Source: Flavobacteriales bacterium (GTDB lineage Bacteria; Bacteroidota; Bacteroidia; NS11-12g; UBA955). From it: a stretch of DNA of 64,000 nt. The stretch covers positions 11,077 through 75,076 of the forward strand of contig CANHRE010000004.1 of assembly GCA_947463095.1 (NCBI GenBank). Reading direction: 5' to 3'. Positions 36,430 through 52,285 of this stretch are shown in pieces. The position numbers and the translations under genes were made by a program. The notes beneath the pieces were generated by a model, which was not told where the DNA came from, did not search any database, and saw only the letters and a list, made by a program, of their open reading frames with translations. The number at the start of each line of letters is the position of its first letter. The first letter of the stretch is position 1.

Positions 36430-36454
36430 GATTCATGGGTGTATGATCGGTACT

Positions 36455-37366
36455 TCAGGGGTTGATGAGCCGCAAGGTCTCACGTCCGGCTGAGGTTTCT
36501 ATCTGCAATAAATACAAACCTGCAGGCAGGTGCGCTATCGAAAATTGTTTTATGTTGCCCTGAAGACAGGTTTTGCCTTCTGTATTCAACAGTTGAATAT
36601 TCCGTATGGGTGCGTCCGTGCGCAATTCGAACAGGCCATTGCCCAGCGCGCAGAGTTTTGAGCTCGATGCCACAGTTGTCTGAACAGCATTTCCGGCGGC
36701 AGGCGCAAACCTGAATATCGAATTCGCAGCAGGTACCGAAGTCAGCGGGCCAGCGCCGGTGACAAATGAACTGTAAGAAACTGGTGAAGCCGGATTACCC
36801 TTAAGGCCGTATGCTGTGGTGCCATTGTAATCAACAAGGTAGGCATAAGGACCTGTTTCTCCGTTCCATGAGAATGGATTCTTCACGCTGGAAGGTCCAT
36901 AGTGGTATTCAATAATGCCACCCTGTTCGTAAAACCATACCTGATAGCTGATGGAATCAAATCCCAGGGTATCATAGGTGAACCCCATGTATCCCCATTC
37001 AATTTTGAAGATGCGGTTGGGGCTGCTTCCGTCGGTAGTTTGTGCAATATAGCTTTTCCCGTCTTTGCGGGGTGAAAGGTCCGCGCCAAATGCCGAGGCT
37101 TCGTCGTCAAACTCAAACTCCGTGATGGCAAAATTGCTGTTGCCCCAAACGATGATGCTGTCGCTGATGGCTTTCCCGAAATACGGTATAGCGAACGATG
37201 TTTTATACATGGTATCAAACAGCGAATTCGTGTCCTTAAAGGTGCGCTTTGAAGCACTAAGGTGTTGATAGGTATTGTTGCGCAGGCTGTGCGTATAGGT
37301 CTGTCCCCAGGCGCAGTTCATAAACGCCAGGATAAGGGTGCAGCAGGTAACGATGGTCCTTAACAT
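36455..37366 (-). CDS. Secreted protein with a T9SS C-terminal sorting domain
   Basis: 303 aa with a signal peptide. The C-terminus is …IQLLNTEGKTCLQGNIKQFSIAHLPAGLYLLQIETSAGRETLRLINP, which is typical of a Por/T9SS CTD. Confidence 0.7.
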   Translation of the reverse strand: MLRTIVTCCTLILAFMNCAWGQTYTHSLRNNTYQHLSASKRTFKDTNSLFDTMYKTSFAIPYFGKAISDSIIVWGNSNFAITEFEFDDEASAFGADLSPRKDGKSYIAQTTDGSSPNRIFKIEWGYMGFTYDTLGFDSISYQVWFYEQGGIIEYHYGPSSVKNPFSWNGETGPYAYLVDYNGTTAYGLKGNPASPVSYSSFVTGAGPLTSVPAANSIFRFAPAAGNAVQTTVASSSKLCALGNGLFELRTDAPIRNIQLLNTEGKTCLQGNIKQFSIAHLPAGLYLLQIETSAGRETLRLINP

Positions 37367-37403
37367 GATGCAAATTTAATCTTTGGGTTAAAGTGACGTT
37401 CAT

Positions 37404-37437
37404 AAAAAAAGCCCCCGGAATTCCGGGGGCTTTTTTT
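37404..37437. terminator. Rho-independent terminator (perfectly palindromic)
   Basis: AAAAAAA-GCCCCCGGAATTCCGGGGGC-TTTTTTT between the stop of the 866-aa T9SS gene and the start of the next T9SS gene. Confidence 0.8.
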
Positions 37438-37454
37438 ATGACGTAGAAGTCTTT

Positions 37455-39989
37455 TTAGTTTTTTGAAACGCGGTGTGTGATGTTCACCAGGCCGTCGGTG
37501 AAATTCACCAGGTACAGGCCATTTGCCATGTTGCTGAAGTCGATGGTTTTTACTTCGGCAGCATTGTAGGTGCCCAGGATTTTACCGGTAAGGTCGCTAA
37601 CGGTTACAACACCTTTTTCGGCATTGACAACGTCAAGCTTCAACATTCCGGAAACAGGGTTGGGGTAAACGTCAAACTGAACCAGCGGATTGCCGTTGCG
37701 GTCTAGCTGGGAAGCTTTGTTGCGCTGGGTAGCAATTTCATTGCCACTCACGCCTTCACCGGCAATCATCATGGGTGCAGTCAGATCTTTATCCATCGAA
37801 CCGGTGGCGAACAGGGTAGCAGTGTTGGCTGAAACGTTGCCGCGGAGGTAAGGGGCGTCGTTGCCGTTCTTGCCACCATCAACCCAACCATTGCTGCCTG
37901 AGTAGTTATAAGCTACGCGCAGTTTGCCGGAAGTCCAGCGAGTAGGGATATTAGCAAGAAATACGTGTGCCTTGAAGGTGCTTGAGCCGCTCACGCGATC
38001 AATCTTCCAGTATTCAGTGGACATCACGGTATCCAGTGGGCTGTTTACAGTGTTTGTGCCGCTGTAGCCTGTAGGGAAATACTCCACTTTAAAGGTATTG
38101 GAGCCGCTGATGCTTTCAACGCGGGCAGGAGCGTAGGTTGAACCTTTGCCTACGGGGAAGAAGCTGTAAAGCCTCCACGCAGAACCTTTGGTAATGTTCA
38201 TACTCAACGGACCGTCAACGTAAGAGTCTGCGCTGCCATTACCGGTGAGCATGAAAAATGCGTTGGTGATGGTGAGGTCAAACGTAGATGGCTTAACAAT
38301 ACCCTTGGTGAAGGCAACACGCTTGATATCCCAGTTGCTGGCAAGGGTTACACTTCCTCCGGTTTTGTTGAACTCAACGTTCTCACCGAATTGGTCGCGT
38401 GCATTGGAACTGAACTTCACAGTTTGGTTTCTGTTGCCCATGAATATCATTTTTCCGGGAAGTGAACCTGCTGAGTTATTCACGGGAGTTTCAGCAGTGA
38501 AGTTGCCATAGATATGCATCTGTGCATTCCCAATGTAGGCGCGTGAAGTAGCAGGGATGGTGAAATCACCAAGGATGGCCCAGCAGTCAGTTCCTGAAGC
38601 GAAGTTCAGACCCACACCATTGGAAGGGTTGGCACTATTCGGCATGTTTACCACCACGTGGTTGAAGTACACGGTATCATTGTTGTGCACGAATCCGGAC
38701 ATGCTGGCAGTATTGTTCAGACATACCACACCGCTTTGAGCATCAAAAGATGTTTCATTGGCGAAGTTCCAGCTGCCGTTATAAAACAGCGTGTCGTCAT
38801 CGGGAGCAATCAGTTTACCGCCGTTGGTAACCACGATTCCGCCGTTGCCACCATTGATCTTGGCATTGGTTGAACCATCAAAAGTCAGAATGCCACGGGT
38901 AACACGGGTAACATAACCGGTCCAGCCGATTTCCTGTTTGTTGAGCACCGTTACGCGATTAGAAGAACTTGATTTATCTACGGTGATGTTGTGCGCACCT
39001 TTCAGAGGTGTGTTTACAATATACACACCGTTTCCTGATCCGGTGAAGCCAATGTGCGGAGCACCGTTTACACCTACAAAGTTGGTTGATACGTTGTTGG
39101 CCATGCTGCTGTGAACCATCACCGTGTCGCGTGATCCAATCATGTCAATCTGGCTGTTGGTGCTCCACTCGTTCAGGCTGGCTTCCATGATGGAAAGACG
39201 CTGAAGGGCAATGATTCTGGAACCTTTACCGGCACCGAGGGTTTTGTTCACACGCAGGTAAGCAGGGGTAGTGATGTCGCCTGCACCGTCTGCCTTCTTG
39301 TCAATTTCAATGATGAAGAGGTTGAATTCAGAATTGTTTGTGTTGATGGTGCCTTCAGTAGATCCGATGAAACGCACCAGACCATTGTTGTGTATAAAGG
39401 TGCCTAATGATTCGCGATACAAGTCACCACGAATTTTAACCACAGCCTTAGGGTTCTTTGAATAACCGTCAGGAGCATTGAAGCGTGAGTAGTTCCTCAG
39501 CGAAAGGTTCCTTATGTCAACTGTGGAATTACTGTATGAATTGAACTGGCTGTTGCCCATCGACAAGGTTCCTGTAATGATGCAATGGTTGGCACTGACG
39601 ATAGATCCAAACCCCATGGTGATGTTCCTCGCCCTGAAGGTGTCGTTGGTAAGTGCGCCAAAGATAGAGCCACCATTCAGTGAAATGTCATTGGCACGAA
39701 GTGAAGAAGTGCCTTTGATGGAAATACGCTTGGTGTAGCTTTGAGGACAGGTGATGTTATTCACGCGCACTGCAGTGAAGATGTCGCAATCGGAGTTGTT
39801 TCCGAAAGTTACATTGTCATCACAATCCGGTGCACCTGCGGGCGACCAATTTCCGCTGGTTTCCCATTTGAAATCGCTGGCACCATTGGTCCAGGTTTTT
39901 GAGGTCGCAATGCCGTCGCCACAAGCTTGTGCGAAGGTCATTTGGGTCCCTGCGCACAGGGCCACAAATGATAAGAGTAGTTTTTTCAT
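37455..39989 (-). CDS. Large secreted protein (about 845 aa mature) with a T9SS C-terminal sorting domain; probable beta-helix/adhesin-like cargo
   Basis: Signal peptide MKKLLLSFVALCAGTQMTFAQA. The body is rich in N/G/S/T repeats. The C-terminal CTD is …VYPNPVSGMLKLDVVNAEKGVVTVSDLTGKILG…GLYLVNFTDGLVNITHRVSKN. The ORF track's start at 40055 adds 22 aa with no signal peptide, which is unlikely to be real. Confidence 0.7.
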   Translation of the reverse strand: MKKLLLSFVALCAGTQMTFAQACGDGIATSKTWTNGASDFKWETSGNWSPAGAPDCDDNVTFGNNSDCDIFTAVRVNNITCPQSYTKRISIKGTSSLRANDISLNGGSIFGALTNDTFRARNITMGFGSIVSANHCIITGTLSMGNSQFNSYSNSTVDIRNLSLRNYSRFNAPDGYSKNPKAVVKIRGDLYRESLGTFIHNNGLVRFIGSTEGTINTNNSEFNLFIIEIDKKADGAGDITTPAYLRVNKTLGAGKGSRIIALQRLSIMEASLNEWSTNSQIDMIGSRDTVMVHSSMANNVSTNFVGVNGAPHIGFTGSGNGVYIVNTPLKGAHNITVDKSSSSNRVTVLNKQEIGWTGYVTRVTRGILTFDGSTNAKINGGNGGIVVTNGGKLIAPDDDTLFYNGSWNFANETSFDAQSGVVCLNNTASMSGFVHNNDTVYFNHVVVNMPNSANPSNGVGLNFASGTDCWAILGDFTIPATSRAYIGNAQMHIYGNFTAETPVNNSAGSLPGKMIFMGNRNQTVKFSSNARDQFGENVEFNKTGGSVTLASNWDIKRVAFTKGIVKPSTFDLTITNAFFMLTGNGSADSYVDGPLSMNITKGSAWRLYSFFPVGKGSTYAPARVESISGSNTFKVEYFPTGYSGTNTVNSPLDTVMSTEYWKIDRVSGSSTFKAHVFLANIPTRWTSGKLRVAYNYSGSNGWVDGGKNGNDAPYLRGNVSANTATLFATGSMDKDLTAPMMIAGEGVSGNEIATQRNKASQLDRNGNPLVQFDVYPNPVSGMLKLDVVNAEKGVVTVSDLTGKILGTYNAAEVKTIDFSNMANGLYLVNFTDGLVNITHRVSKN

Positions 39990-40227
39990 GATAGGTAACT
40001 GGTTGTTGTTGTTGCGGGCAAATATATGCATTGTTGGTAACATGTTGACAACCAAGCCTTAAAAATGAAAAATACCCTTAAATAATGGTTAAAAACGATT
40101 ATTTGCGCTTGCCGATGAAGGTCGTTAAACATGCTTTTAGCGATAAACGTCAATATTTGATGCAGGTGTTTATGTGGTTTGTGCATAAACACCTGTGGAT
40201 ATACACGGAACCTACCATAAGCGTGAG

Positions 40228-41847
40228 CTATTTTCGATACACATGGTAGCCCTGGATGATGGTGTCCAGGTAGAATTTTCCGCTAACAGGGTGCCCATCG
40301 GCATGCAGACTGGGCTCTGTGTTCCTGATAAACAGCCTGTACAGAGAATCATTGCTTACCGGCGCTCCTGGAGTGCTTGGCCTTTTGCATAGTTCCGGAG
40401 GGAAATTCTTGCCAAATACCACAACATCCGATGCATCCCAGATTTGTTCCAGATGGTCTGAATACCATTGAATGATATTGGATTCCCTGTCCTGTTTGGT
40501 TCCGGTATTCTGGTAAGGATATGCCTTTAAATAATAAATGTATGGATACTTGATGCTCCAGTCAATACCCACCTGTTGACCCTGGTATGTACTGTTTAAA
40601 TACGCATACATGGAATCGGCGGAAGCACTGGCCTGCCTTATTTCAGGCAATTCGGAGCGGTGAAGGTACGAGGTTGCTGTGCCTCCAAAGAAGCCATAGG
40701 CAGGCCAAAGACAGCCCAAGAATGCAAAGGGCACCAGACTCCAGCGACGCAGCGTTGCAGTATTCCAATGTTCAGAAGCATAACGCATCAGCGCAAACCA
40801 GCAAAGGATATAACCGGTCCACAGGTAATGAGGCCATAGACGTTTGCTCATCAGCATTATAGACATCAGCAGTATGAATCCGCTCATGCCGGCAATCCAG
40901 CTGATGTCGATGTTGCGTTTTACCAACGCCTGCCTTGTTTTATCGGCCATCACCCACAGCACCAGGGCAAGGAATAGGTATCCGGCCCAGGATGCATACA
41001 GGTATTCCTGACCCAGTCCTTGTTGCAGCCATTCCGTAAAACCCAATTGCTGGTTGTCGTAGAAGCGTTCGGTTCCCAGGAAGGTTTTGCGCAAATAGGT
41101 TTGAAGGTAGATAGGTTTTACCGGACTTAACAGCAAACAGGGAATGCCTGTAAAAAAGCCGCCCATAAAAAACAGCACGGAACGCAAGCCCTGTTTGATC
41201 CAGCTTCGGTCTTTAAGTACTGAAAACCCGAGCAATGGCAATGCGAACAGGAGGGGAAGGGTAGTCAGAATGTTGAATTTGGCAGCAAAAGCCAGTCCCA
41301 GCCAGAAATAGTGCTTGCCAAAACGAGGACTTCCTTCAGCAACCATTCCCCTGAAAAACAAAGCCAGAAATAGCAATTGTATGGGTTCCGGCTTAGGCAT
41401 GGTGGTGAAATACAGGGTGTACAATAAGGCCCCTGCACCCCAATACCAAAGCATCCGGATGCCGCTGCGCTTGATGAAGGTTCTTCCCAAAATGAATAAG
41501 GCCGTTAATATCCAGAGGGCCCTGGCCATACGCACCGCCATCACCAAACCGCTGATGCCCCAGATTTTGTAAGGCAGCCAGGCGAGGAGCGCATCGGAAT
41601 AGAAAACCACCCGGCCATAGTACAGGATATCACCGCCAATAACCGCCAGAAACCAATGCTTCATGGAAGCCGGCTCAAGGATGGAATACACTTCCCGGAT
41701 GGTCAGGTACTCATCGTGGCCTGCAATAAAATGGTTGATGTTTGCCCCGTCCAGGAATTGAACGTTCAGCCTGATGGCGAAAAGCAGGAACATGCTGCCA
41801 AACAGCAGTTCCGGAAGGTTTTTCTTTTGAAAAATGCCTGATCCCAT
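40228..41847 (-). CDS. GT-C-fold membrane glycosyltransferase (ArnT/PMT-like), polyprenyl-phosphate-sugar dependent
   Basis: 539 aa with about 13 TM helices. The first periplasmic loop carries HDEYLTIREVYSILEP, a DE-type GT-C motif. It is the last gene of the 7-gene operon, immediately downstream of a Dpm1-like GT2. Confidence 0.6.
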   Translation of the reverse strand: MGSGIFQKKNLPELLFGSMFLLFAIRLNVQFLDGANINHFIAGHDEYLTIREVYSILEPASMKHWFLAVIGGDILYYGRVVFYSDALLAWLPYKIWGISGLVMAVRMARALWILTALFILGRTFIKRSGIRMLWYWGAGALLYTLYFTTMPKPEPIQLLFLALFFRGMVAEGSPRFGKHYFWLGLAFAAKFNILTTLPLLFALPLLGFSVLKDRSWIKQGLRSVLFFMGGFFTGIPCLLLSPVKPIYLQTYLRKTFLGTERFYDNQQLGFTEWLQQGLGQEYLYASWAGYLFLALVLWVMADKTRQALVKRNIDISWIAGMSGFILLMSIMLMSKRLWPHYLWTGYILCWFALMRYASEHWNTATLRRWSLVPFAFLGCLWPAYGFFGGTATSYLHRSELPEIRQASASADSMYAYLNSTYQGQQVGIDWSIKYPYIYYLKAYPYQNTGTKQDRESNIIQWYSDHLEQIWDASDVVVFGKNFPPELCKRPSTPGAPVSNDSLYRLFIRNTEPSLHADGHPVSGKFYLDTIIQGYHVYRK

Positions 41848-41870
41848 GGTTGATGGAGTTATTGAGGTGT

Positions 41871-42608
41871 TTAAGATTTTACCGAGCGACGCAATTCGAA
41901 GATATACCGCAAGATTCTTTTGATGAGTTTTCTCCTTGTTTTCCAGCTGCTTCCGCTGCCACCCTTGGCTTCACCGGCCACCCTGGGCGCGAAGAACACC
42001 GGGAAATCCATGATGTTCCCGCTTTTTTTGGCGTGGTACAACAGGTATAAATCCAACGAAAAATCATGGGGCGCCGCCGCGTCCACCTGTTGGAAAAACG
42101 AACGGCTGAACAGCTTGGGCTGGGCATTGATTTCAGTAAGCCTGGTACCCAGTGCCAGCGAAGAAAGCAGGCCCATGCCCCAGGAAAAGAAGGCTTCAGA
42201 GGCTTTGCGGTTTTTTCGATAACCTTTTACCAGCAGCGTTTTTTGGTGCTGTGCCGTTGCCTTGCTGTACATATCAAGTGCCTTCAGCACATCCATTGGA
42301 TCCGTTTGCCGGTCGGCATGGGTAACGGCCAATAGAGGCCCGTGTGCTGCCCGCAGTCCCGACAGGATGCCAAATCCGTAGCCCAGGTTCTTTGCCACGT
42401 TTACCACGCGGAATACCCTTCCGTCCCTTCCTGCCAATTCCCGGTCAAATACGGCAGCGGAACCATCGGTTGAACCATTGTTCACCAAGATGATTTCCAA
42501 CCCCTGTTCCTTCAGAGGTAGCGGGTCCAGGCTTTTGAAGAGTTCCGGCAGGTTCTCTACTTCATTATAGCAGGGAATCACAATGGATAACCGGTACTGA
42601 TGTTCCAT
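41871..42608 (-). CDS. GT2-family polyprenyl-phosphate sugar synthase (Dpm1/ArnC/GtrB-like)
   Basis: 245 aa. LSIVIPCYNEVENL…EIILVNNGSTDGS…HADRQTDP carries the DxD-type motifs typical of Dpm1-like GT-A enzymes. Confidence 0.75.
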   Translation of the reverse strand: MEHQYRLSIVIPCYNEVENLPELFKSLDPLPLKEQGLEIILVNNGSTDGSAAVFDRELAGRDGRVFRVVNVAKNLGYGFGILSGLRAAHGPLLAVTHADRQTDPMDVLKALDMYSKATAQHQKTLLVKGYRKNRKASEAFFSWGMGLLSSLALGTRLTEINAQPKLFSRSFFQQVDAAAPHDFSLDLYLLYHAKKSGNIMDFPVFFAPRVAGEAKGGSGSSWKTRRKLIKRILRYIFELRRSVKS

Positions 42609-42620
42609 GAACGGTATGAT

Positions 42621-43418
42621 TTATTGTTGATGGGATGCCCTGTTTTTCAGGATGTGGTAATATTCATCCCAGTATTGAAAGGTTTGGTAATCACTCGGTG
42701 TTCCCCAGCAGATATAGTGGTCCACCTCAAAAACCCTGGCACGTAGGCCCATGGCAATCAGGTCGTTGATGCACTCATCCACGTAGAACTCGTTGTTCAC
42801 GCGACGGTTTTGGGCAATCATGCGCTCTGCCGCCTCAACAAACAGACTGCCTTTTCTGAACCAGAAGGCGCCCACGTAGGCATGGTGGTTCAAGGGGTCG
42901 GGCATGTCGTATTTTACTTTGGCTTCGGTGATGCTCACGCCGTCTTCGGCGGTTAACACCCATCCATAGGCTTTGGGGCTGGGCAACACAGTGGGGTTGT
43001 TGCGGAAACTGAATACAATGGCATCCGTATCGCGGCAGGCTTCGGCAAAAGCTTCTTCATCGTACAACATGCCGTTGTCGCTGGCGCCGATGAACAATTC
43101 GCTGTCGTTGTTGATCCAATCGCGGGCAAGCAGACAGGTACTGGCCTGGCCTTCCGTCAGTGCATCTATGGTGATGATGTGTGCCTCCGGGAAATGTTCC
43201 TTCAGCACTGCGTCTATGCCGTATTCTTCAATGTGAAACTGTCGAACCACGAATATGTATTCACCGCCTTCGTAGGGCAGGCTTTTGGCAGCGCTGACCA
43301 CCATGGGCAATCCGCGAACCGGCAGCAGAGGCTTGGGCGTGGTATAGCCCTTCATGGCAAATCGGCTGCCTGCGCCGGCCATAGGTATAAGTTTTATGAA
43401 ATCAGCGGACATGGTCAT
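42621..43418 (-). CDS. Sugar-/alcohol-phosphate nucleotidyltransferase (NTP-transferase GT-A fold), paralogue 2
   Basis: 265 aa. It has the N-terminal G-loop IPMAGAGSRF…KPLLPV. It overlaps its paralogue upstream by 17 nt. Confidence 0.6.
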   Translation of the reverse strand: MTMSADFIKLIPMAGAGSRFAMKGYTTPKPLLPVRGLPMVVSAAKSLPYEGGEYIFVVRQFHIEEYGIDAVLKEHFPEAHIITIDALTEGQASTCLLARDWINNDSELFIGASDNGMLYDEEAFAEACRDTDAIVFSFRNNPTVLPSPKAYGWVLTAEDGVSITEAKVKYDMPDPLNHHAYVGAFWFRKGSLFVEAAERMIAQNRRVNNEFYVDECINDLIAMGLRARVFEVDHYICWGTPSDYQTFQYWDEYYHILKNRASHQQ

Positions 43419-44178
43419 AGCGTTTAAAGATGTCTTCCCAGCTTAAGAATTCCCTCATGTCTTCCGGGGTTCCCCATTGACAAAAATGCGGCACCTCGGC
43501 ATATACCTTCACCTTCAGGCCATCCCGAACCATGTAATTGTATGGCAGGCTGATGAAATACTCGTCAAATACCGTGTTCTGTGAATCCATCAGCTCGGTG
43601 AAGTACTGCTTGATGTAGCTCCCTTTGGAGAAGTAATAAGTTCCTCCTGAATAAAAGCCCTTTTCACGGTCGGTTTCATAATTGTGCTTTTCGGTAATTT
43701 CCAGCATGTTCATGTCTGCATCTGTCAGGCAGGTGGCATACAGATTTTGCGGGTGAAGCAGATGTGGATGGAAGCCGGTATAGCAGATTACGGCACCGTC
43801 GGCACCGCTTTCTTCCATGCTGCGCACGAAATGGGCATAATCCCAGATCATGCTGAAGTCGCAGTAGTTGCAAATCACCGGCTCATCATCGGCAATGCGG
43901 TCAAATACCTGACTCACCGTATAAACCGGTCCGTATTTGTGTGCGTCAATGCCTGCAATTTCCGCCGTGGGGGCGATGCTGAGCAGGAGCTCCCGCAGGT
44001 CGGTGGCCTCCAGCATGTCGTTGCGACAAATAAACAGGATGTCTGTTTCGCCCGGAAACAGGTTCACCACGTGCTCTATCACCGGTTTTCCATGGATGGT
44101 AATCAGGGCCTTGTAGGTATCCCAGCCTGCCTTTTTAAAGCGGCTGCCCTGTCCGGTCATCGGTATGACAATTTTCAT
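43402..44178 (-). CDS. Sugar-/alcohol-phosphate nucleotidyltransferase (NTP-transferase fold), paralogue 1
   Basis: 258 aa. The G-loop is IPMTGQGSRFKKAGWDTYKALITIHGKPVI. The architecture matches the neighbouring paralogue. Confidence 0.6.
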   Translation of the reverse strand: MKIVIPMTGQGSRFKKAGWDTYKALITIHGKPVIEHVVNLFPGETDILFICRNDMLEATDLRELLLSIAPTAEIAGIDAHKYGPVYTVSQVFDRIADDEPVICNYCDFSMIWDYAHFVRSMEESGADGAVICYTGFHPHLLHPQNLYATCLTDADMNMLEITEKHNYETDREKGFYSGGTYYFSKGSYIKQYFTELMDSQNTVFDEYFISLPYNYMVRDGLKVKVYAEVPHFCQWGTPEDMREFLSWEDIFKRYDHVR

Positions 44179-44894
44179 AGCTCGTTTAGAAATTCAATCG
44201 GAAAGTCAGTGTAATAATGGGTGATGCCCAGCTCCCGGAAGCGTCGGAAGTCGTTCAGGTCATTCACCACACAGGCGCCTGCAGCAATGCCCAGCGATTG
44301 AACTTGGGCTACCAGCTCCGGGCTGATGGCTTCTTTCAGGTACATCAGGGCTGTGAAGCGATAACGGGTAGCAAGCTCAAAGTCGGTTTCATGATCGGTG
44401 CCGGGCAGCCGGTCCCAGAACAAGGGGATATGCGGTGCGCGGCGTCGCGCCTCGATCAGGTATTCGCAGTTGATGTCGTTGAAGGCAATGCGTGTTTCCA
44501 TGCCGCAGGCTGCTGCCAGCTTCAGCGCCGGCGCCACCAGTCCGTTCATCTTGGGTTGTATGCTGATGCGGCAGGAGTAGGGCCGAATGGCTTCAAATAC
44601 TTCGCTGAGCAAAGGCACCGTGCAGGGCGCAGCGCCAGGCAGGTAAGCACCGAAGTTCAGCTTTTTCAGCGCTGCAATACCGGCCTGAGGTACGTTGCAG
44701 GATATTCCCGTAACCCGAAGCGTATCTTCATCATGCGTAACCACCAGATGTCCGTCGGCCGTCATCTGTATGTCCAGCTCCAGCCAGGGCGCCCCGGCTT
44801 CAGCCGCGCTCAGGAAGGCTGGAAGCGTGTTCTCCGGAAAACGCGACATATTCCCCCGATGTGCGAAAATCTGTACCTGTCCTCTGTCCCGCAT
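44175..44894 (-). CDS. Glycerophosphodiester phosphodiesterase (GDPD family)
   Basis: QIFAHRGNMSRFPENTLPAFLSAAEAGAPWLELDIQMTADGHLVVTHDED carries the GDPD HR(G)…E…D…H catalytic signature. The start is set at M26 of the ORF-track frame (44894), which gives an ATGA overlap with the upstream gene. The track's start is 44969. Confidence 0.75.
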   Translation of the reverse strand: MRDRGQVQIFAHRGNMSRFPENTLPAFLSAAEAGAPWLELDIQMTADGHLVVTHDEDTLRVTGISCNVPQAGIAALKKLNFGAYLPGAAPCTVPLLSEVFEAIRPYSCRISIQPKMNGLVAPALKLAAACGMETRIAFNDINCEYLIEARRRAPHIPLFWDRLPGTDHETDFELATRYRFTALMYLKEAISPELVAQVQSLGIAAGACVVNDLNDFRRFRELGITHYYTDFPIEFLNEL

Positions 44895-46990
44895 CAAGCC
44901 TGTTTCATTCTGACAAAAATAAGATAGCTCACCATCAGCTGCAGCAAGCCGGTATAATTGCTCTTCCACACCGGATTGTATATGCCCACTTCCTCCAGCT
45001 CGGGTATCATGCGGTAGGCAATGTTGCTGATGTCTTCCGCATTGGCTGTGCCGTCGAAAATCACCACCTGCTTCTCGTGCTCGTAATGATGTTCCAGCGT
45101 CAGGCCCTTCAGGCAGCTTAAACGCTCCAGCAGGGGCTCCATGTTGTGGTCGTTGGGAAGGCTGAGCCGCAGCAACACCTCGGGCACCGTTTCCTGATCC
45201 AGCGGATCAACAGGCCGGCGTGGGAAAAAACTGGCCAACAGGTCGGCCTGCGCTGCCTGAGTGCGGATGAACTTGTTGGAGTCCTCTTCGCGGTGCTTCA
45301 ACTGTTCCAGCACCTTCTCTGGGGTATAGCCCCGCTTTTGTACGTCGCGGTTCACCTTCCACCAAGTGCGTAAAGGTTCATCCGGCTCCATGAAAATCTT
45401 CAGGTCATACACATCGGCCTGGTTCTTCAGGTAAAAAGAATGTAAACCCTCAAAAACAATCAGTCGGTTGGGCTTCAGGAAACGCGGCAAGGTAAACCTG
45501 CCCGTGTTGTGGTCATAGGAACGGCGCTGTATGCCTTTGCCTGTCTTTAGTTGCCGCGCCTGATCCATCTCCTCGTGGAGCTTGTTGGCCCGCGGATCGA
45601 GGTGCGTTAAACGCTCCCAGTTGGCGTCGCCGCGCTCCCAGCGATGCATGTCGTCGCCCCGGATGATGGTGGTATGTGCCGGCTCAAATACCGATGCCAG
45701 CGCCGACGATAAAGTGGACTTGCCGCTGGCCGAATCCCCTCCCACGCCAATCAGGTATGGCTGCGACAGAAACTTTGTTTGTATATTGGTTTTGATGCCT
45801 TCCCGGTACACCAGAAAGCCGCTCAGCAGCAGACTGGTTTGCAAAAGGGTAAAGGTTACGTTCAGGGCCACATCAGAGGCGAATCCTGCCGGGTGTGGCA
45901 TGGCATTGGGTGCCCACCACAGCGCCGTGAGGTAATCACTGCCCGGAATGAGCCCGAAATACAGGAAATACAGGGCACTGAGCAGGATGAATACCGTCTG
46001 CTCCCGCAGGCTTTGTTTTACAATGAAGAACACCAGCAAGGGCACAATCCAGAAATACCAGCCCTGCATCGGCGGAATCAGCAGCGTCAGCGCCAGAAAG
46101 GTAAAGGTGAGGAACAGCACCAGCTGATCGCGGTTCACAAAACGGAAGCTGGCATACCACACCACCAGGATGAAATACACCGCAGGGATGATGTAAAAAC
46201 GCAGCCCCCCGTAGCTGAAATACATGTTGAATACCTGCCGCTGTACGGGGTTGTCGTATACCATCCTTCTGAATCCCACATCCTGCCAGTACGGGAAGTT
46301 GATGAGCAACAACACCGCGAGAAAGATGGCAGCAGATTGCAGCAGTATGCTCAGCCTGACCTTAGGTGTGCGGATCAGGTAGATGGCATAAAAGGGCAAC
46401 ACCAGCGCCATATTCGTCTTGCAGCCCACCGCCATGGCCAGCAACAGGGCCGACAATGGCCAGCGCTCCCTGAACAGGAAATGCAGCGACAGCATGAGCA
46501 GCGCCATGGGCATCACATCCAGCTGCCCGTGGAAATAGTTGATGTACAACAAAACCGGCGACAGCCAGTACCACAGCAACAGTTTGCGGCTGTAAGGCTT
46601 CAGCCAGCGCATCAATACCACCAGGATGCTGAAGTCGGCGGCCAGCAAGGGAATGCGGTACAAAATGGCATCGGCAACGGAAAAGTGATCGCCGCCCGGT
46701 ATCAGCCACCAGAACAACATCCTGGGCAGGCTGAACAGCCACAGCATCAGGGGCGGATAAGGGAATTCTGTGCCTTGGCCGTTCAGGGAGAAATAGGCGT
46801 ATGGATTGGAAAAGTTGCTGCCAATAAAATAGTTGCCGAATGGTGCAAATTGTTCTTTCAGGTAATCAGAAGCAAACAATGCCGCCAGAAGCAGTTTCGC
46901 GGCCAGGCCAAACCAGAATAAACGCGACTTGAGCAGCGGTAATTTGGATTTCCCGAACTTGTCATAGACGCTGAAGCTTCCGTTTGCCAT
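44894..46990 (-). CDS. Fusion protein: N-terminal polytopic (GT-C/GT87-like?) membrane domain joined to a C-terminal uridine-kinase/phosphoribulokinase-family P-loop kinase domain
   Basis: 698 aa. Residues about 1-400 form about 11 TM helices. Residues about 405-698 carry the P-loop GVGGDSASGKSTLSSAL, then IIRGDDMHR and the wider URK/PRK-family layout. Confidence 0.6.
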   Translation of the reverse strand: MANGSFSVYDKFGKSKLPLLKSRLFWFGLAAKLLLAALFASDYLKEQFAPFGNYFIGSNFSNPYAYFSLNGQGTEFPYPPLMLWLFSLPRMLFWWLIPGGDHFSVADAILYRIPLLAADFSILVVLMRWLKPYSRKLLLWYWLSPVLLYINYFHGQLDVMPMALLMLSLHFLFRERWPLSALLLAMAVGCKTNMALVLPFYAIYLIRTPKVRLSILLQSAAIFLAVLLLINFPYWQDVGFRRMVYDNPVQRQVFNMYFSYGGLRFYIIPAVYFILVVWYASFRFVNRDQLVLFLTFTFLALTLLIPPMQGWYFWIVPLLVFFIVKQSLREQTVFILLSALYFLYFGLIPGSDYLTALWWAPNAMPHPAGFASDVALNVTFTLLQTSLLLSGFLVYREGIKTNIQTKFLSQPYLIGVGGDSASGKSTLSSALASVFEPAHTTIIRGDDMHRWERGDANWERLTHLDPRANKLHEEMDQARQLKTGKGIQRRSYDHNTGRFTLPRFLKPNRLIVFEGLHSFYLKNQADVYDLKIFMEPDEPLRTWWKVNRDVQKRGYTPEKVLEQLKHREEDSNKFIRTQAAQADLLASFFPRRPVDPLDQETVPEVLLRLSLPNDHNMEPLLERLSCLKGLTLEHHYEHEKQVVIFDGTANAEDISNIAYRMIPELEEVGIYNPVWKSNYTGLLQLMVSYLIFVRMKQA

Positions 46991-47004
46991 GCCTGTGTGT
47001 GAAC

Positions 47005-47691
47005 TTAGATGAGGTATGCCCGGATGCCCGATTGCGCCGCGCCAAGGATGTCTTTTTCGTGGTTATCGCCCACCATGATCACCTGTTCGGGCGGCAACTG
47101 CAGTTTATCCAGGGCCAGGCGGAAAATGACCGGATCTGGTTTTTCCAGGCCGGCTTCTTCAGAGGTAACCATAAAGTCGAAATAGCGTTCCAGACCCAGG
47201 CGCGCCCACTTGCGGAATTGTATGTGCGTGGTGAGGTCGGTGACAATACACGTGCGTATGTCCGCTGCGTTCAACCGCTGCAGGAACTGTTCTGCCTCCG
47301 GATTCCATTCCATGGCGTCGAGGTAGGCTTCCCAGAAGCAATCCTCCAGTTCCAAGGCCAGCAAGGGCCTGCTTTTGCCAAAAATCAACTCCAGGGCGCT
47401 GTGCAGGTACAGCAGCCGTGAATGAGAAGCCGCCTGACCTTTCAGCTGTACATGCGTTTTGTTGCGGGCTTCCTTCCAGGCTGCTTCCAGCTCCTCGGCG
47501 CCAACAATCTGACGATCCTGCACCCTGCGAAGTACCGCCTCGTACCCCTTCCTGTTGCAGGGTTCATAGGCATAGAGCGTATCATCTAAATCCAGACATG
47601 CGCCCAATACACCATCCAAATTGATGGCAGCAAAACTGTTTTTGGTCAGGATATGGCTCATGCGCTGAGAAAACCGGCTGCTGCATTGCAC
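47005..47691 (-). CDS. HAD-superfamily hydrolase (phosphatase)
   Basis: 228 aa. Motif I is LDLDDTLY (DxD) and motif IV is MVGDNHEKD. It is the first gene of the minus-strand operon. Confidence 0.75.
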   Translation of the reverse strand: MQCSSRFSQRMSHILTKNSFAAINLDGVLGACLDLDDTLYAYEPCNRKGYEAVLRRVQDRQIVGAEELEAAWKEARNKTHVQLKGQAASHSRLLYLHSALELIFGKSRPLLALELEDCFWEAYLDAMEWNPEAEQFLQRLNAADIRTCIVTDLTTHIQFRKWARLGLERYFDFMVTSEEAGLEKPDPVIFRLALDKLQLPPEQVIMVGDNHEKDILGAAQSGIRAYLI

Positions 47692-47877
47692 CAGTTTAGA
47701 TGGGTATTGAACTTAAGGTGAGACAGCGGCATGAACGTTGCGTCGCAAACTTACGGCAAAGGCTAAACTGAAGCAAATGAGGGATTATGGGGAGTGCACC
47801 GGTCCCTGAGCTCATTTTGAATATATGCTCATGACAGGGGTCTGTGCCAACCTGATGAATCCTTAAGCAAGAATTTT

Positions 47878-48127
47878 CTCTTACTTTTTCCTTGATGAAA
47901 AAGGATGCAAAAAATCAAGGCTGCTTGGATAGTGGTAAGGGATAAGTGGTAAGTGGTAAGTGCGGAGGTTTGTAATCCTGCTGTCATCCTGAGCATGCCT
48001 ACCCCTACCGGGCTGCGCAGCAGATTGGTAGGGGAGCTAGTTTACCCTGCCTGCCCCCACCGAGTTGCAAAGCAACTGCTTGCCCCCACTGGATTGCGCA
48101 GCAAGACACCATGGGGGTGGGGGAGCA
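47878..48127. repeat. Modular structured intergenic repeat, copy B (direct relative to copy A; carries an extra ~90-bp module)
   Basis: Matches copy A from the hairpin module through the heptamer array (five TGGWWAG units here) and the CCCCCAC…GTGGGGGTGGGGG module. It holds an additional internal duplication of the C-run-TGCGCAGCA-G-run submodule. The hairpin stem is partly degraded (AAAAAGGATG versus AAAAAGTAAG). Confidence 0.85.
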
Positions 48128-48456
48128 ACGTCGAAGGGAAGGACCGCCCACGCACCCTGATTCATACAGATATCCATCCCTGTGCCTTAAGGAAACATAA
48201 CAACAGAAAACAGTATTTAACCTTAGGCTTCGAAAGATTAAATAAGGGCTTTTTATGGATTGCAATCCAGCCGTTCCTTATGCAGGTTATCAAGGTGTGT
48301 AGATTTGGTATTGTCGCTGTTCAGAGGGATATTAACAGCTTGAGAATAATCTTTCCCGGCGAAATGGTATGGGTTGCATGAAATGCAGAACAAGTGAAAT
48401 CAAACGATCTGGCCTGATTATTTTGTAAGTTCGAAGAGGATATAAGCCACAAAAAC

Positions 48457-48678
48457 ATGCTCCACACAATGGATATAGATAGAACTAATCTGACTATCAT
48501 GGGAGTTGAGTTTACTGATTTGAACACTTTAGAAAGCACCGCAAACGCTTTGGGCAGCAATATGTTCGAAGGCATTAAACCAACACCCAATGGTGTTGAA
48601 ATCATCAGAGACTATGTGACGGGCAAAATAAAGGGGTCTAAGACACATGCTAATCATAGTTCAGAAAATGTGTGTTAA
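48457..48678 (+). CDS. Small hypothetical ORF (73 aa) at the island edge; possibly a remnant or accessory gene
   Basis: MLHTMDIDRTNLTIMGVEFTDLNTLESTANALGSNMFEGIKPTPNGVEIIRDYVTGKIKG… The region is AT-rich like the island, and no family assignment is possible. Confidence 0.25.
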   Translation: MLHTMDIDRTNLTIMGVEFTDLNTLESTANALGSNMFEGIKPTPNGVEIIRDYVTGKIKGSKTHANHSSENVC

Positions 48679-48726
48679 TTTGAACCCAGATACGTTTAGG
48701 CAATATATAACCATGAAAGAAAAAAT

Positions 48727-50577: not shown

Positions 50578-50694
50578 CAAAGAATTTTTGTAAAGACAGC
50601 CAACGCACAGGTGTAAGCATATTTGCAAGTGTAAGTCCCACCGAAAATCGGACTGGTCATAAGTTGGCAAAATAGCTAACTTAGAACCACGAAC

Positions 50695-51779: not shown

Positions 51780-51816
51780 CTTCCAACTTATTACCGGTTC
51801 GAAAAACGGGGTACCT

Positions 51817-52245: not shown

Positions 52246-52285
52246 TTTGATATAACTATCTTGCACAAATAAAAATTAAACTCAA

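What the first reader, a model, noticed from the sequence alone, without database searches (positions are those of the whole stretch)
40228..47691. Seven-gene operon of unknown specificity: HAD phosphatase, membrane-kinase fusion, GDPD, two nucleotidyltransferases, Dpm1-like GT2 and a GT-C transferase
The genes are co-oriented and tightly overlapping, which indicates one transcript. The logic reads as a complete pathway. A glycerophosphodiester phosphodiesterase could release an alcohol such as glycerol, choline or ethanolamine. A uridine-kinase-like kinase could phosphorylate a substrate. Two paralogous NTP-transferases could activate X-phosphate to NDP-X. The HAD gene is a phosphatase. The GT2 loads a polyprenyl-phosphate carrier, and the GT-C enzyme would transfer from the lipid carrier to a periplasmic acceptor. 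A GlpQ-like GDPD together with cytidylyltransferases recalls the Lic phosphocholine decoration route of Haemophilus, in which GlpQ acquires choline from glycerophosphocholine. Here the transferases are the polyprenyl-P-sugar type, so the product may be a phospho-alcohol-modified or unusual sugar-modified envelope glycan, possibly on the neighbouring T9SS cargo proteins. The identities of substrate and product are inference only.
Basis: inference. Interest (0 to 1): 0.65.

Follow-up and report, generated by a model that had tools for sequence, protein, structure and literature searches.

The report
Ribulose-bisphosphate-fed envelope glycosylation gene cassette
These seven genes are one variant of a widespread but unstudied cassette that appears to turn the pentose-phosphate intermediate ribulose-5-phosphate, via ribulose-1,5-bisphosphate, into an activated sugar and attach it to the cell envelope through a lipid carrier, which could be the unknown route to the rare pentulose sugars of bacterial surface glycans.

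Summary
The seven co-oriented, tightly packed minus-strand genes are real, and all seven domain calls hold. Two corrections apply. The kinase is phosphoribulokinase-like, not uridine-kinase-like. Its membrane half is itself GT-C-like, so the operon has two GT-C modules.

The HAD protein falls in the clade of the haloarchaeal ribulose-1,5-bisphosphate 5-phosphatase.

About 80 related loci show a conserved cassette. It occurs in Bacteroidota, Patescibacteria, Rickettsiales-like bacteria, Melainabacteria, Bdellovibrionales and on E. coli and Azospirillum plasmids. Its parts are a small GDPD-fold phosphodiesterase, HAD, often GtrA, the GT-C–PRK fusion, a class II aldolase-like protein, two nucleotidyltransferases and a DPMS/ArnC/GtrB-like GT2.

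The window belongs to a small sub-lineage. There a canonical GDPD replaces the minimal phosphodiesterase and the aldolase-like gene is lost.

Best model: Ru5P→RuBP→Ru1P, then a nucleotide-activated pentulose (or derivative), then polyprenyl-phosphate-sugar, then GT-C transfer to an envelope glycan. The chemistry after Ru1P is inferred only.

The GT2→GT-C carrier logic is supported.

This is a new variant of Gtr-type three-component glycosylation with an unprecedented sugar-supply branch.

The parts
47746..47753 (-). Possible Bacteroidota-type -7 promoter element (TAAGTTTG, fits TAnnTTTG), 85 nt upstream of the HAD ATG
   Evidence: Read directly from the sequence. This is a pattern match only. 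The sigma-70 scan found nothing convincing upstream of the operon.
47005..47661 (-). HAD-IA phosphatase (218 aa), nearest to ribulose-1,5-bisphosphate 5-phosphatase
   Evidence: Pfam Hydrolase/HAD_2. NCBIfam NF053830 scores 198 bits (E 2e-58) against 105 bits for the next family, but this is below the 330-bit equivalog cut-off. DxD, K and GDxxxD motifs are invariant in A5.
45791..46990 (-). N-terminal polytopic membrane domain of the fusion protein (about residues 1-400), GT-C-like (GT87/DUF2029-type)
   Evidence: Pfam GT87 scores 27.8 bits against a cut-off of 25. Relatives also touch ALG6/ALG8. Invariant motifs are FPYP, R112, D119 and YxHGQxD. The domain family has 207 representatives at E<=1e-30, and almost all full-length ones carry the kinase.
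44894..45790 (-). C-terminal phosphoribulokinase-like kinase domain of the fusion (about residues 401-698)
   Evidence: NCBIfam PRK07429 phosphoribulokinase scores 199.6 bits (cut-off 236); uridine kinase scores 69 bits. The domain aligns without gaps to Synechococcus PRK 6hzk over 179 residues. The P-loop, DDxHxxxR, Y(D/N)H and KxxRDxxxRG motifs are kept and are invariant in the family.
44175..44894 (-). Cytosolic GDPD-family phosphodiesterase (239 aa)
   Evidence: Pfam GDPD scores 92 bits. HR, ExD and HD motifs are invariant, but the third metal-ligand Glu of the ExK motif is Gln (ISIQPK against VNIEIK in 2pz0) in all 10 family members. The catalytic His-Arg sits at residues 12-13, so there is no signal peptide.
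43402..44178 (-). Nucleotidyltransferase A (258 aa)
   Evidence: Pfam NTP_transf_3. It carries the PMxGxGSRF signature. The best solved relative is 4evw, an uncharacterised NDP-sugar pyrophosphorylase.
42621..43418 (-). Nucleotidyltransferase B (265 aa), paralogue of A
   Evidence: 27% identical to NTase-A over the full length, E 1e-26. Weak NCBIfam hits to rmlA_long and archaeal GlmU. The best solved relative is again 4evw. A and B are fused into one protein in Flavobacteriaceae and in the E. coli and Azospirillum plasmids.
41871..42608 (-). GT2 polyprenyl-phosphate glycosyltransferase-like enzyme (245 aa, DPMS/ArnC/GtrB-like)
   Evidence: Pfam Glycos_transf_2. The nearest solved structures are DPMS 5mlz (aligned over residues 5-244), ArnC and GtrB sll0501. 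The canonical DAD(L)Q motif reads THADxQ in the window and all 55 cassette homologues aligned.
40228..41847 (-). GT-C-fold membrane glycosyltransferase (539 aa) with a small C-terminal soluble domain
   Evidence: No Pfam or NCBIfam hit. The AlphaFold2 model has pLDDT 89.4 and pTM 0.89. The top 26 Foldseek PDB hits are all GT-C enzymes (ALG12, STT3, ArnT, DPY19, ALG9, AftA, PMT, ALG6, Emb, PimE). An HDEY motif is invariant after the first helix.

Best explanation
The operon is a self-contained, Gtr-like 'three-component' envelope glycosylation cassette with its own sugar-activation branch. That branch starts from the pentose-phosphate intermediate D-ribulose-5-phosphate.

Proposed steps:
1. The cytosolic PRK domain of the fusion protein phosphorylates Ru5P to ribulose-1,5-bisphosphate (RuBP).
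2. The HAD enzyme removes the 5-phosphate to give ribulose-1-phosphate. This kinase-then-phosphatase relocation of the phosphate follows the same logic as HldE/HddA-GmhB in heptose activation.
3. The two paralogous nucleotidyltransferases and the cytosolic GDPD-type phosphodiesterase convert this into a nucleotide-activated pentulose or a close derivative.
4. The DPMS/ArnC/GtrB-like GT2 transfers the sugar to a polyprenyl phosphate.
5. After flipping, the GT-C domain of the fusion and/or the 539-aa GT-C enzyme transfers it to an envelope acceptor, most likely a surface polysaccharide.

Status of each step:
- Shown: gene content, folds, motifs and conserved synteny.
- Inferred from the nearest characterised families: steps 1, 2, 4 and 5.
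- Inferred only: step 3, the identity of the sugar and the acceptor.

A speculative way to give every conserved part a role in step 3 runs as follows. NTase 1 makes NDP-1-ribulose. This cyclises to ribulofuranose 1,2-cyclic phosphate. The GDPD-fold enzyme opens the ring to the anomeric 2-phosphate. NTase 2 then makes the true glycosyl donor.

In most relatives a class II aldolase-like enzyme (FucA/RhuA/AraD family) is also present. It could epimerise D-ribulose-1-P to L-xylulose-1-P. The window's lineage lacks it, so its sugar would be the unmodified pentulose.
For: PRK domain:
- 200 bits to the PRK07429 phosphoribulokinase model against 69 bits to uridine kinase.
- An ungapped alignment to bona fide cyanobacterial PRK.
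- It keeps the residues reported to bind Ru5P or catalyse (Arg64, Tyr103, His105, Arg159, Asp160, Arg164 of CrPRK; bioRxiv 10.1101/422709, read). These are invariant across 13 divergent fusion proteins.

HAD:
- The best family is NF053830, RuBP 5-phosphatase, at 198 bits, about twice the next family. The same holds for 24 of 24 cassette HADs from all phyla.
- The reference enzyme is strictly RuBP-specific and yields Ru1P (PMC9700705).
- Two independent enzymes therefore point to RuBP, one as its maker and one as its user.

Cassette conservation:
- Of 78 loci with the fusion, 61 have HAD, 68 have the NTase pair, 63 have the aldolase-like gene and 57 have the 190-aa protein. Many missing cases are truncated contigs.
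- Observed fusions are GT-C-PRK-aldolase, GtrA-GT-C-PRK and NTase-NTase.

Phosphodiesterase as a core part:
- The 190-aa protein models at pLDDT 95.5 and matches GDPD TIM barrels (TMq 0.70-0.76).
- PGAP names its plasmid homologues 'PI-PLC/GDPD family'.
- The window's canonical GDPD sits in lineages that lack it. One locus has fusion, aldolase and GDPD together (L025).

NTases track the sugar-specific step:
- NTase-A and NTase-B co-vary with the GDPD or aldolase type. Identity is 76% and 71% in GDPD-type loci against 55% and 58% in aldolase-type loci.
- At the same time the fusion, HAD, GT2 and GT-C diverge equally in both types.

Carrier and transfer:
- GT2 is nearest to DPMS, ArnC and GtrB.
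- The 539-aa protein has a GT-C fold.

Context in other genomes:
- O-antigen or capsule-type loci with gmd, fcl, ABC transporter, Wzy_C, NeuB, DegT and GT1/GT4 genes.

Literature:
- Pent-2-ulofuranose residues exist in several bacterial glycans. Genes for their activation are unknown (PMC7685785; PMC8707391; PMC11380512).
Against: - No enzyme assay exists for any member.
- Both the PRK and HAD scores are below the curated equivalog cut-offs (200 against 236; 198 against 330).
- Ribulose-1-phosphate carries its phosphate on a non-anomeric carbon. A plain NDP-1-ribulose is therefore not a glycosyl donor for a DPMS-like GT2, and the model needs an extra, unprecedented step.
- The NTases look like anomeric sugar-1-P enzymes (RmlA/GlmU-type weak hits). 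This would also fit an aldose-1-phosphate.
- The role of a phosphodiesterase in nucleotide-sugar synthesis has no precedent.
- No GtrA flippase is present in the 64-kb window.
- The only E. coli host I could type carries an O35-family O-antigen cluster, not O95 or O97. No link to a pentulose-containing glycan was shown.
- The GT2 has HxD instead of DxD, and the GDPD has Q instead of the metal-ligand E. Their chemistry may therefore differ from that of their namesakes.
Confidence: 0.5

Rival explanations
1. Same Gtr-like delivery system, but the sugar is an ordinary aldopentose or another aldose. The PRK-like kinase would phosphorylate the anomeric position of a sugar-5-phosphate, for example ribose-5-P to ribose-1,5-bisphosphate. 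The HAD would remove the distal phosphate. An NTase would make NDP-ribose or NDP-arabinose, and GT2 would make polyprenyl-P-ribofuranose or -arabinofuranose. This is strictly analogous to the HddA-GmhB-HddC heptose route.
For: - The NTases give weak hits only to anomeric sugar-1-P enzymes (rmlA_long, GlmU, AglF).
- The GT2 is DPMS/ArnC-like and needs an anomerically activated donor.
- A nucleotide-activated Ribf has never been demonstrated either (PMC7685785).
Against: - Every residue known to bind Ru5P in PRK is conserved. The domain aligns without gaps to authentic PRK.
- The reference RuBP phosphatase did not act on ribose-1,5-bisphosphate (PMC9700705).
- The class II aldolase-like partner of most cassettes, with its Zn triad and Glu intact, acts on ketose-1-phosphates in all characterised relatives.
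Confidence: 0.2
2. The PRK, HAD and (in relatives) aldolase genes form a catabolic or metabolic shunt. It would be a bacterial version of the lower half of the haloarchaeal non-carboxylating pentose bisphosphate pathway (Ru5P→RuBP→Ru1P→DHAP + glycolaldehyde). On this view it is merely co-located with glycan genes, or it supplies glycolaldehyde or DHAP rather than an intact pentulose.
For: The same three enzyme families act in that order in haloarchaea, and there the HAD and FucA-like genes form an operon (PMC9700705). Fusion-plus-aldolase pairs occur without nearby HAD or NTase genes in eight loci.
Against: - The window lineage has lost the aldolase but keeps intact PRK, HAD, NTases, GT2 and GT-C across nine loci at 45-94% amino-acid identity. 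Ru1P itself, not its cleavage products, must therefore feed the downstream enzymes.
- The kinase is physically fused to a GT-C domain, and sometimes to GtrA as well.
- The cassette is embedded in surface-glycan loci.
Confidence: 0.08
3. One reading: a Lic-like phospho-alcohol decoration. The GDPD frees choline, ethanolamine or glycerol from a glycerophosphodiester. The kinase phosphorylates the alcohol. The NTases make CDP-alcohol, and the envelope glycan receives a phospho-alcohol.
For: A canonical GDPD and two NTases sit side by side. NTase-A gives a faint IspD hit (E 0.003).
Against: - The kinase is a P-loop PRK with a sugar-5-phosphate pocket, not a choline or ethanolamine kinase.
- No LicB-, LicD- or EptA-type family was hit by any of the seven proteins.
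- The GDPD has no signal peptide, unlike GlpQ/protein D.
- Most cassettes have no canonical GDPD at all (9 of 78 loci).
- The HAD's RuBP-phosphatase affinity has no role in this scheme.
Confidence: 0.05

Closest known systems
Three-component Gtr-type periplasmic glycosylation systems: GtrA/GtrB/Gtr(type) of Shigella and Salmonella phages, CsbB-GtcA-YfhO, ArnC-ArnT, and PpgS-Rv3779 in mycobacteria (recalled from established knowledge)
   Same: A small DPMS/GtrB-like GT2 loads a sugar on polyprenyl phosphate. A GtrA-family protein is present in many relatives and is sometimes fused. A GT-C enzyme transfers the sugar outside the cytoplasm. The second GT-C is lineage-specific, like the serotype-specific Gtr(type). 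The cassette is mobile, being found on plasmids next to IS26.
   Different: Known systems use housekeeping UDP-Glc, UDP-GlcNAc or a short modification pathway. This cassette carries five or six dedicated sugar-supply genes. One conserved GT-C domain is fused to a kinase. The GT2 has HxD instead of DxD. No phage copy was found. The window itself lacks GtrA.
Nucleotide-heptose pathways (HldE/HddA kinase, GmhB HAD phosphatase, HldC/HddC nucleotidyltransferase)
   Same: The logic for moving a phosphate is the same. A distal sugar phosphate is phosphorylated at C1. A HAD phosphatase removes the distal phosphate. An NTase then activates the 1-phosphate.
   Different: The kinase family differs (P-loop PRK against ribokinase or GHMP types). 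The substrate is a ketose, so C1 is not anomeric. There are two NTases plus a phosphodiesterase instead of one NTase.
Haloarchaeal non-carboxylating pentose bisphosphate pathway (RuBP phosphatase plus Ru1P aldolase; PMC9700705)
   Same: The HAD is the nearest characterised relative. In most cassettes a class II aldolase-family partner follows. RuBP and Ru1P are the inferred intermediates.
   Different: RuBP would come from PRK rather than from R15P isomerase. The context is anabolic glycan biosynthesis, not nucleoside catabolism. The aldolase-like gene is absent from the window. Scores lie below the equivalog cut-offs.
Calvin-cycle and 'cyanobacteria-specific' phosphoribulokinases (PDB 6hzk, 9qko)
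   Same: The kinase domain shares the fold, the P-loop and all Ru5P-binding motifs. The best solved relative is 9qko (E 1e-42).
   Different: The kinase is fused to a polytopic GT-C-like domain. I found no Rubisco-related gene in any of the window or cassette ORFs I scanned, though neither was searched specifically for Rubisco. The hosts include heterotrophic Bacteroidota, CPR bacteria and Rickettsiales.
Lic phosphocholine pathway with GlpQ (Haemophilus, Streptococcus)
   Same: Only the superficial pairing of a GDPD with a nucleotidyltransferase.
   Different: There is no LicA-type kinase, LicB transporter or LicD transferase. The GDPD is cytosolic. The transferases are of the polyprenyl-P-sugar type.

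Membership tests
Phosphoribulokinase (EC 2.7.1.19) | P-loop plus the Ru5P-binding and catalytic residues (DDxHxxxR Arg64; Tyr103/His105; Arg159/Asp160/Arg164 in CrPRK numbering) | tested here: met
   Ungapped alignments to 6hzk, 6kev and 6gve show all motifs. They are invariant in A1. The residue list comes from bioRxiv 10.1101/422709.
Phosphoribulokinase (EC 2.7.1.19) | Score above the curated NCBIfam cut-off for PRK07429 | tested here: not met
   199.6 bits against a cut-off of 236. Uridine kinase models score much lower (69 and 64 bits).
Phosphoribulokinase (EC 2.7.1.19) | ATP-dependent conversion of Ru5P to RuBP | not testable with these tools
   Needs an enzyme assay of the kinase domain (residues about 400-698).
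Ribulose-1,5-bisphosphate 5-phosphatase (NF053830) | Best-scoring family, with intact HAD catalytic motifs | tested here: met
   198 bits against 105 for the next family. 24 of 24 cassette HADs match it, and it gives the best E-value of any family (3.7e-59). DxD, K and GDxxxD are invariant.
Ribulose-1,5-bisphosphate 5-phosphatase (NF053830) | Score above the equivalog cut-off (330 bits) | tested here: not met
   198 bits. The model was built from haloarchaeal sequences.
Ribulose-1,5-bisphosphate 5-phosphatase (NF053830) | Strict RuBP specificity, with Ru1P as the product | not testable with these tools
   The reference assay and NMR are described in PMC9700705.
Glycerophosphodiester phosphodiesterase (GDPD, PF03009) | Pfam gathering score and the catalytic His-Arg, Glu-x-Asp and His-Asp motifs | tested here: met
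   92.3 bits against a cut-off of 23.6. H12, R13, E39, D41, H54 and D55 are invariant.
Glycerophosphodiester phosphodiesterase (GDPD, PF03009) | Third metal-ligand Glu of the E-x-K motif | tested here: not met
   ISIQPK aligns to VNIEIK in 2pz0 and VNVELK in 4oec. Gln is invariant in the 10-member family.
   The protein is 239 aa and the catalytic HR sits at residues 12-13. NCBIfam GlpQ PRK11143 scores only 36.7 bits against a cut-off of 254.
Gtr-type three-component glycosylation system | GtrB/DPMS-like GT2 polyprenyl-phosphate glycosyltransferase | tested here: inconclusive
   The nearest solved structures are DPMS, ArnC and GtrB. However, the DxD motif is HxD in the window and all 55 cassette homologues aligned, and no curated cut-off is reached.
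Gtr-type three-component glycosylation system | GT-C-fold transferase | tested here: met
   The 539-aa protein has a pLDDT-89 model, and the top 26 Foldseek hits are GT-C enzymes. The fusion N-domain passes the Pfam GT87 cut-off.
Gtr-type three-component glycosylation system | GtrA-family flippase encoded with the other two | tested here: not met
   tblastn found no GtrA homologue in the 64-kb window. GtrA is present in 18 related loci and on both plasmids, and it is fused to the GT-C-PRK protein in P0457.
Lic phosphocholine pathway | LicA choline kinase, LicB permease, LicC cytidylyltransferase and LicD phosphocholine transferase | tested here: not met
   No such families appear among the Pfam and NCBIfam hits of the seven proteins. 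The kinase is of the PRK type.
Haloarchaeal non-carboxylating pentose bisphosphate pathway | R15P isomerase, RuBP phosphatase and Ru1P aldolase acting together | tested here: not met
   No aldolase homologue was found in the window. No isomerase family appears among the Pfam or NCBIfam hits of the operon and flanking proteins. Only the phosphatase-like HAD is present.

The most novel reading that the evidence does not exclude
The cassette is the long-missing biosynthetic route to pent-2-ulofuranose (ribulose or xylulose) residues of bacterial surface glycans. It would use ribulose-1,5-bisphosphate as an anabolic intermediate outside carbon fixation. A GDPD-fold enzyme and two nucleotidyltransferases would relocate the phosphate from C1 to the anomeric C2. 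This would create a nucleotide-activated ketopentose that a DPMS-like GT2 and GT-C enzymes install on the envelope.
Probability: 0.3. Interest if true: 0.85.

Novelty: new variant of a known kind. Interest (0 to 1): 0.74.

Why it matters
If the model holds, it would assign the first anabolic, non-autotrophic role to phosphoribulokinase and RuBP.

It would also explain why PRK-like genes turn up in heterotrophs, CPR bacteria and endosymbionts.

It offers a concrete candidate for the unknown activation pathway of ketopentose residues. D- and L-xylulofuranose occur in E. coli O95 and O97, Yersinia enterocolitica O:5,27 and O:10, C. jejuni RM1221 and Devosia. A 2019 review states that no activation genes for these residues are known.

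The cassette is compact, and copies lie on plasmids, including an E. coli IncR plasmid where it sits next to IS26. It is present in cultured strains as well. The hypothesis is therefore directly testable, and the cassette may act as a transferable surface-antigen modifier.

Tried and rejected
- **190-aa protein, sequence methods.** Pfam scans of 25 members gave nothing. A profile search of PDB sequences gave only a non-significant GDPD hit at E 2.4. hhalign against the window's GDPD family gave E 0.004 and probability 8%. The GDPD fold was established only by structure prediction and Foldseek.
- **Second large membrane protein.** I tested whether the one in E. coli (586 aa) or in CPR cassettes (579 aa) is homologous to the window's 539-aa GT-C. 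No similarity was found, so that component is lineage-specific.
- **Phage carriage.** I looked for it because classical gtr clusters are phage-borne. There was no hit in 50,697 phage records or in IMG/VR contigs.
- **Link to pentulose-containing O-antigens.** Only 2 of 5,426 complete E. coli genomes carry the cassette. The one typed host has an O35-family wzx/wzy cluster. The result is negative or inconclusive.
- **Literature.** Searches for a PRK-glycosyltransferase link, for DUF2029/GT87 with PRK, for NDP-pentuloses and for the 'cyanobacteria-specific PRK' structure found no description of the cassette.
- **Topology of the fusion.** A crude hydropathy scan was not reliable enough to use.
- **Rejected readings.** These were uridine kinase (score gap), IspD-type cytidylyltransferase (E 0.003 only) and T9SS cargo as a conserved partner (absent from all related loci).

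Full report
**1. The observation**

The region 40228-47691 holds seven minus-strand ORFs. An identical public metagenome contig carries the same genes. Its gene calls and the homologue alignments (A3, A5) refine two starts. HAD starts at the ATG at 47661 (218 aa). GDPD starts at the ATG at 44894 (239 aa).

Successive junctions are +14, -1, -4, -17, +12 and +23 nt. The next gene, a T9SS-tailed protein, lies about 172 nt downstream. GC content (about 0.46-0.56) brackets that of the rest of the window (about 0.52) and is lowest over the GT-C gene. The flank upstream of the operon (48-56 kb) is a low-GC island. A TAAGTTTG element at 47753-47746 fits the Bacteroidota -7 consensus. This is a pattern match only.

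**2. What each gene is**

- **HAD.** It matches Pfam HAD families. Its best NCBIfam family is NF053830, ribulose-1,5-bisphosphate 5-phosphatase, at 198 bits and E 2e-58. That is about twice the next family, but below the 330-bit equivalog cut-off.
- **The 698-aa fusion, N-terminal half.** A polytopic domain passes the Pfam GT87 threshold. In relatives it also touches ALG6/ALG8.
- **The 698-aa fusion, C-terminal half.** The kinase scores 199.6 bits on the phosphoribulokinase model PRK07429 (cut-off 236) and only 64-69 bits on the uridine kinase models. It aligns without a single gap to authentic cyanobacterial PRKs (6hzk, 6kev, 6gve). Its best match is the 'cyanobacteria-specific PRK' 9qko.
- **PRK active-site residues.** The motifs that hold the Ru5P-binding and catalytic residues are DDxHxxxR, Y(D/N)H and KxxRDxxxRG. 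They correspond to Arg64, Tyr103, His105, Arg159, Asp160 and Arg164 of Chlamydomonas PRK (bioRxiv 10.1101/422709). All are present, and all are invariant in 13 divergent fusion proteins.
- **GDPD.** It is canonical by Pfam (92 bits) and carries the His-Arg, Glu-x-Asp and His-Asp motifs. The metal-ligand Glu of the E-x-K motif is Gln in all ten family members. The catalytic HR lies at residues 12-13, so the enzyme is cytosolic rather than GlpQ-like.
- **The two NTases.** They are paralogues (27% identity, E 1e-26). Both carry an intact GxGSRF signature. Their only notable solved relative is 4evw, an uncharacterised NDP-sugar pyrophosphorylase.
- **GT2.** It is closest to P. furiosus dolichol-phosphate mannose synthase (aligned over residues 5-244), ArnC and Synechocystis GtrB. 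Its DxD motif reads HxD in the window and all 55 cassette homologues aligned.
- **The 539-aa protein.** It has no profile hit. Its AlphaFold model (pLDDT 89.4) matches only GT-C enzymes in the top 26 Foldseek hits. An HDEY motif is invariant after the first helix.

**3. The wider family**

The fusion protein has hundreds of homologues. A scan of one genome per species found 153 loci. The best 80 came from these groups:

- Bacteroidota, including the cultured species Eudoraea adriatica and Zeaxanthinibacter enoshimensis. Aurantibacillus circumpalustris appears among the protein-database hits.
- Many Patescibacteria (CPR).
- Rickettsiales-like bacteria, including Megaera.
- Melainabacteria.
- Bdellovibrionales.
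- A spirochaete endosymbiont.

tblastn and de novo ORF clustering define a canonical cassette. Its order is a 190-aa protein with no Pfam hit, HAD, often GtrA, the GT-C-PRK fusion, a class II aldolase-like protein, NTase-A, NTase-B and GT2. A further large membrane protein often follows.

Counts among 78 loci are HAD 61, NTases 68, aldolase-like 63, the 190-aa protein 57 and canonical GDPD 9. Many absences are truncated contigs.

Domain fusions tie the parts together:
- GT-C-PRK-aldolase, 1058 aa, in Kaiserbacteria and related CPR bacteria.
- GtrA-GT-C-PRK, about 830 aa.
- NTase-A-NTase-B in Flavobacteriaceae and on plasmids.

The membrane domain is essentially always fused to the kinase. It has 207 representatives at E<=1e-30, and nearly all full-length ones are 660-750 aa or longer.

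The cassette also sits on plasmids. One is an E. coli IncR plasmid, next to IS26. Only 2 of 5,426 complete E. coli genomes carry it. Another is an Azospirillum brasilense plasmid, where the cassette lies beside gmd, fcl, an ABC transporter and GT1 genes.

In other genomes the neighbours are typical surface-polysaccharide genes. The T9SS cargo gene next to the window's operon is not conserved anywhere.

**4. Where the window's version fits**

The window belongs to a small Bacteroidota sub-lineage of nine loci. In these a canonical GDPD occupies the slot of the aldolase-like gene. The aldolase-like gene and an intact 190-aa gene are absent from the seven that carry the rest of the cassette; L022 keeps only a 102-aa fragment of the 190-aa gene. 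L025 is the exception and has fusion, aldolase and GDPD together.

Neither missing gene, nor GtrA, occurs elsewhere in the 64-kb window.

The 190-aa protein models at pLDDT 95.5. Its best structural matches are GDPD TIM barrels: the top five hits and 13 of the top 16, with TMq 0.70-0.76. Its invariant HR, ExD and HD motifs align with those of GDPD. NCBI's pipeline names the plasmid homologues 'PI-PLC/GDPD family'.

A cytosolic GDPD-fold phosphodiesterase is therefore a universal part of the cassette. The window's GDPD is a same-superfamily replacement for it. It is not an add-on that scavenges alcohols.

At equal divergence of the fusion (58% against 59%), HAD (48% against 47%), GT2 (66% against 66%) and GT-C (39% against 38%), the NTases behave differently. 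They are much closer to the window's in GDPD-type loci (76% and 71%) than in aldolase-type loci (55% and 58%). The phosphodiesterase, aldolase and NTase genes thus behave as one exchangeable, substrate-specific module.

The aldolase-like proteins keep the Zn-binding His triad, the catalytic Glu and the phosphate-binding motifs of FucA/RhuA-type enzymes.

**5. How it most likely works**

Two unrelated enzymes point to the same metabolite. One is a PRK that would make RuBP. The other is a HAD whose only characterised relative is strictly specific for RuBP and yields ribulose-1-phosphate (PMC9700705).

A kinase followed by a HAD phosphatase followed by an NTase is the established logic of nucleotide-heptose synthesis (established knowledge). 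GT2, GtrA and GT-C together form the established Gtr-type three-component logic for periplasmic glycosylation.

I therefore propose this sequence: Ru5P, RuBP, Ru1P, a nucleotide-activated pentulose or derivative, polyprenyl-phosphate-sugar, and finally GT-C transfer to an envelope glycan.

The window lineage works without the aldolase-like enzyme. That enzyme is therefore a tailoring step rather than a cleaving step. By the stereochemistry of its family (3R products, and AraD-type C4 epimerisation; established knowledge), it could convert D-ribulose-1-P to L-xylulose-1-P.

One difficulty remains. C1 of a ketose is not anomeric. A speculative solution gives a role to both NTases and to the phosphodiesterase. 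NDP-1-ribulose cyclises to a 1,2-cyclic phosphate. The GDPD-fold enzyme opens the ring to the 2-phosphate. The second NTase then makes the true donor. I rate this detail at about 0.15.

My other estimates are about 0.6 for RuBP as the intermediate, about 0.8 for the Gtr-like delivery and about 0.35-0.4 for a pentulose product.

**6. Relation to what is known**

I found no description of this cassette in the searchable literature.

Pent-2-ulofuranose residues occur in several bacterial glycans:
- E. coli O95 and O97.
- Y. enterocolitica O:10, as L-xylulofuranose side branches on a D-rhamnan (PMC11380512). O:5,27 is also reported to carry xylulose; that is recalled, not checked here.
- C. jejuni RM1221, Eubacterium saburreum and Devosia submarina (PMC8707391).

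The E. coli O-antigen review states that genes for the nucleotide precursor are not in the O-antigen clusters and that the pathway is unknown (PMC7685785).

The cassette is a plausible candidate for that pathway, but I could not show a link. I could not search the genomes of the pentulose-containing strains.

**7. Verdict**

The Lic/GlpQ analogy and the T9SS-cargo suggestion are not.

The system is a new variant of a known kind, Gtr-type lipid-carrier glycosylation. Its sugar-supply branch is unprecedented: a PRK fused to GT-C, an RuBP-phosphatase-like HAD, a GDPD-fold enzyme and twin NTases. It is widespread, partly plasmid-borne and experimentally tractable.

Noticed in passing
window 47900-56000: A low-GC island (0.34-0.43 against about 0.52) lies directly upstream of the operon. 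It carries a GmrSD-type restriction enzyme at 48727-50577 (PADLOC HEC-06/Orf5/SspE-like), an IS3-family integrase-core transposase at 50955-51779, and a 727-aa UvrD/GajB-like helicase at 52286-54469. It is probably a horizontally acquired defence island. No GajA partner was looked for.
   Followed up: partly
window 36402-40055: An 866-aa protein with a T9SS C-terminal sorting domain lies at 37455-40055. A 303-aa protein with no family hit lies at 36455-37366. Both are on the same strand as the operon and are followed by a strong terminator-like hairpin at 36425-36402. Neither gene is conserved next to the cassette in any other locus.
   Followed up: partly
L083 (E. coli plasmid NZ_CP145712.1) 6022-14984; L084 (Azospirillum brasilense plasmid NZ_CP032350.1): The aldolase-type cassette sits on a 33-kb IncR plasmid, next to IS26, in two unrelated E. 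coli isolates. One came from human stool in Switzerland and one from a bullfrog. It also sits on an Azospirillum plasmid inside a GDP-rhamnose/fucose-type O-antigen locus. The exact E. coli proteins are seen on 54-76 contigs in public data.
   Followed up: partly
window 42300-42330 (GT2 residues about 94-103); the window's GT2 and 55 cassette homologues: The canonical DxD of DPMS, ArnC and GtrB (DADLQ) reads T-H-(A/G)-D-x-Q in every cassette GT2 aligned. This is a family-wide Asp-to-His change at a metal- or nucleotide-binding position. Its consequence is unknown.
   Followed up: partly
window 44556-44558 (GDPD residue Q113): The third metal-ligand Glu of the GDPD E-x-K motif is Gln in all ten GDPDs of this sub-lineage. 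The minimal 190-aa GDPD-fold protein of other cassettes has N-x-K at the equivalent place. Both enzymes may therefore have an altered metal site and altered chemistry.
   Followed up: partly
L008, L012, L013, L018, L022, L024, between the HAD and fusion genes; L006 14766-15134: Small (122-137 aa) genes are inserted inside the cassette in several Bacteroidota relatives. The L006 copy, between NTase-B and GT2, matches Pfam '23S rRNA-intervening sequence protein'. The other six, between HAD and the fusion, were not scanned against any family library. They look like selfish insertions that do not disrupt the operon.
   Followed up: no
L028-L030, L033, L036, L040, L043, L053: A group of Bacteroidota loci has only the fusion plus the aldolase-like gene, next to an Xaa-Pro aminopeptidase-like gene. 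No HAD, NTases or GT2 lie within 10 kb. Whether the remaining genes sit elsewhere in those genomes is unknown.
   Followed up: no
window 30203-35530: Further upstream context: a DUF92 membrane protein at 30203-31573, a protein with four MopE-type copper-binding repeats at 31583-32560, and a 905-aa AsmA-family protein at 32813-35530 followed by an EamA transporter.
   Followed up: no
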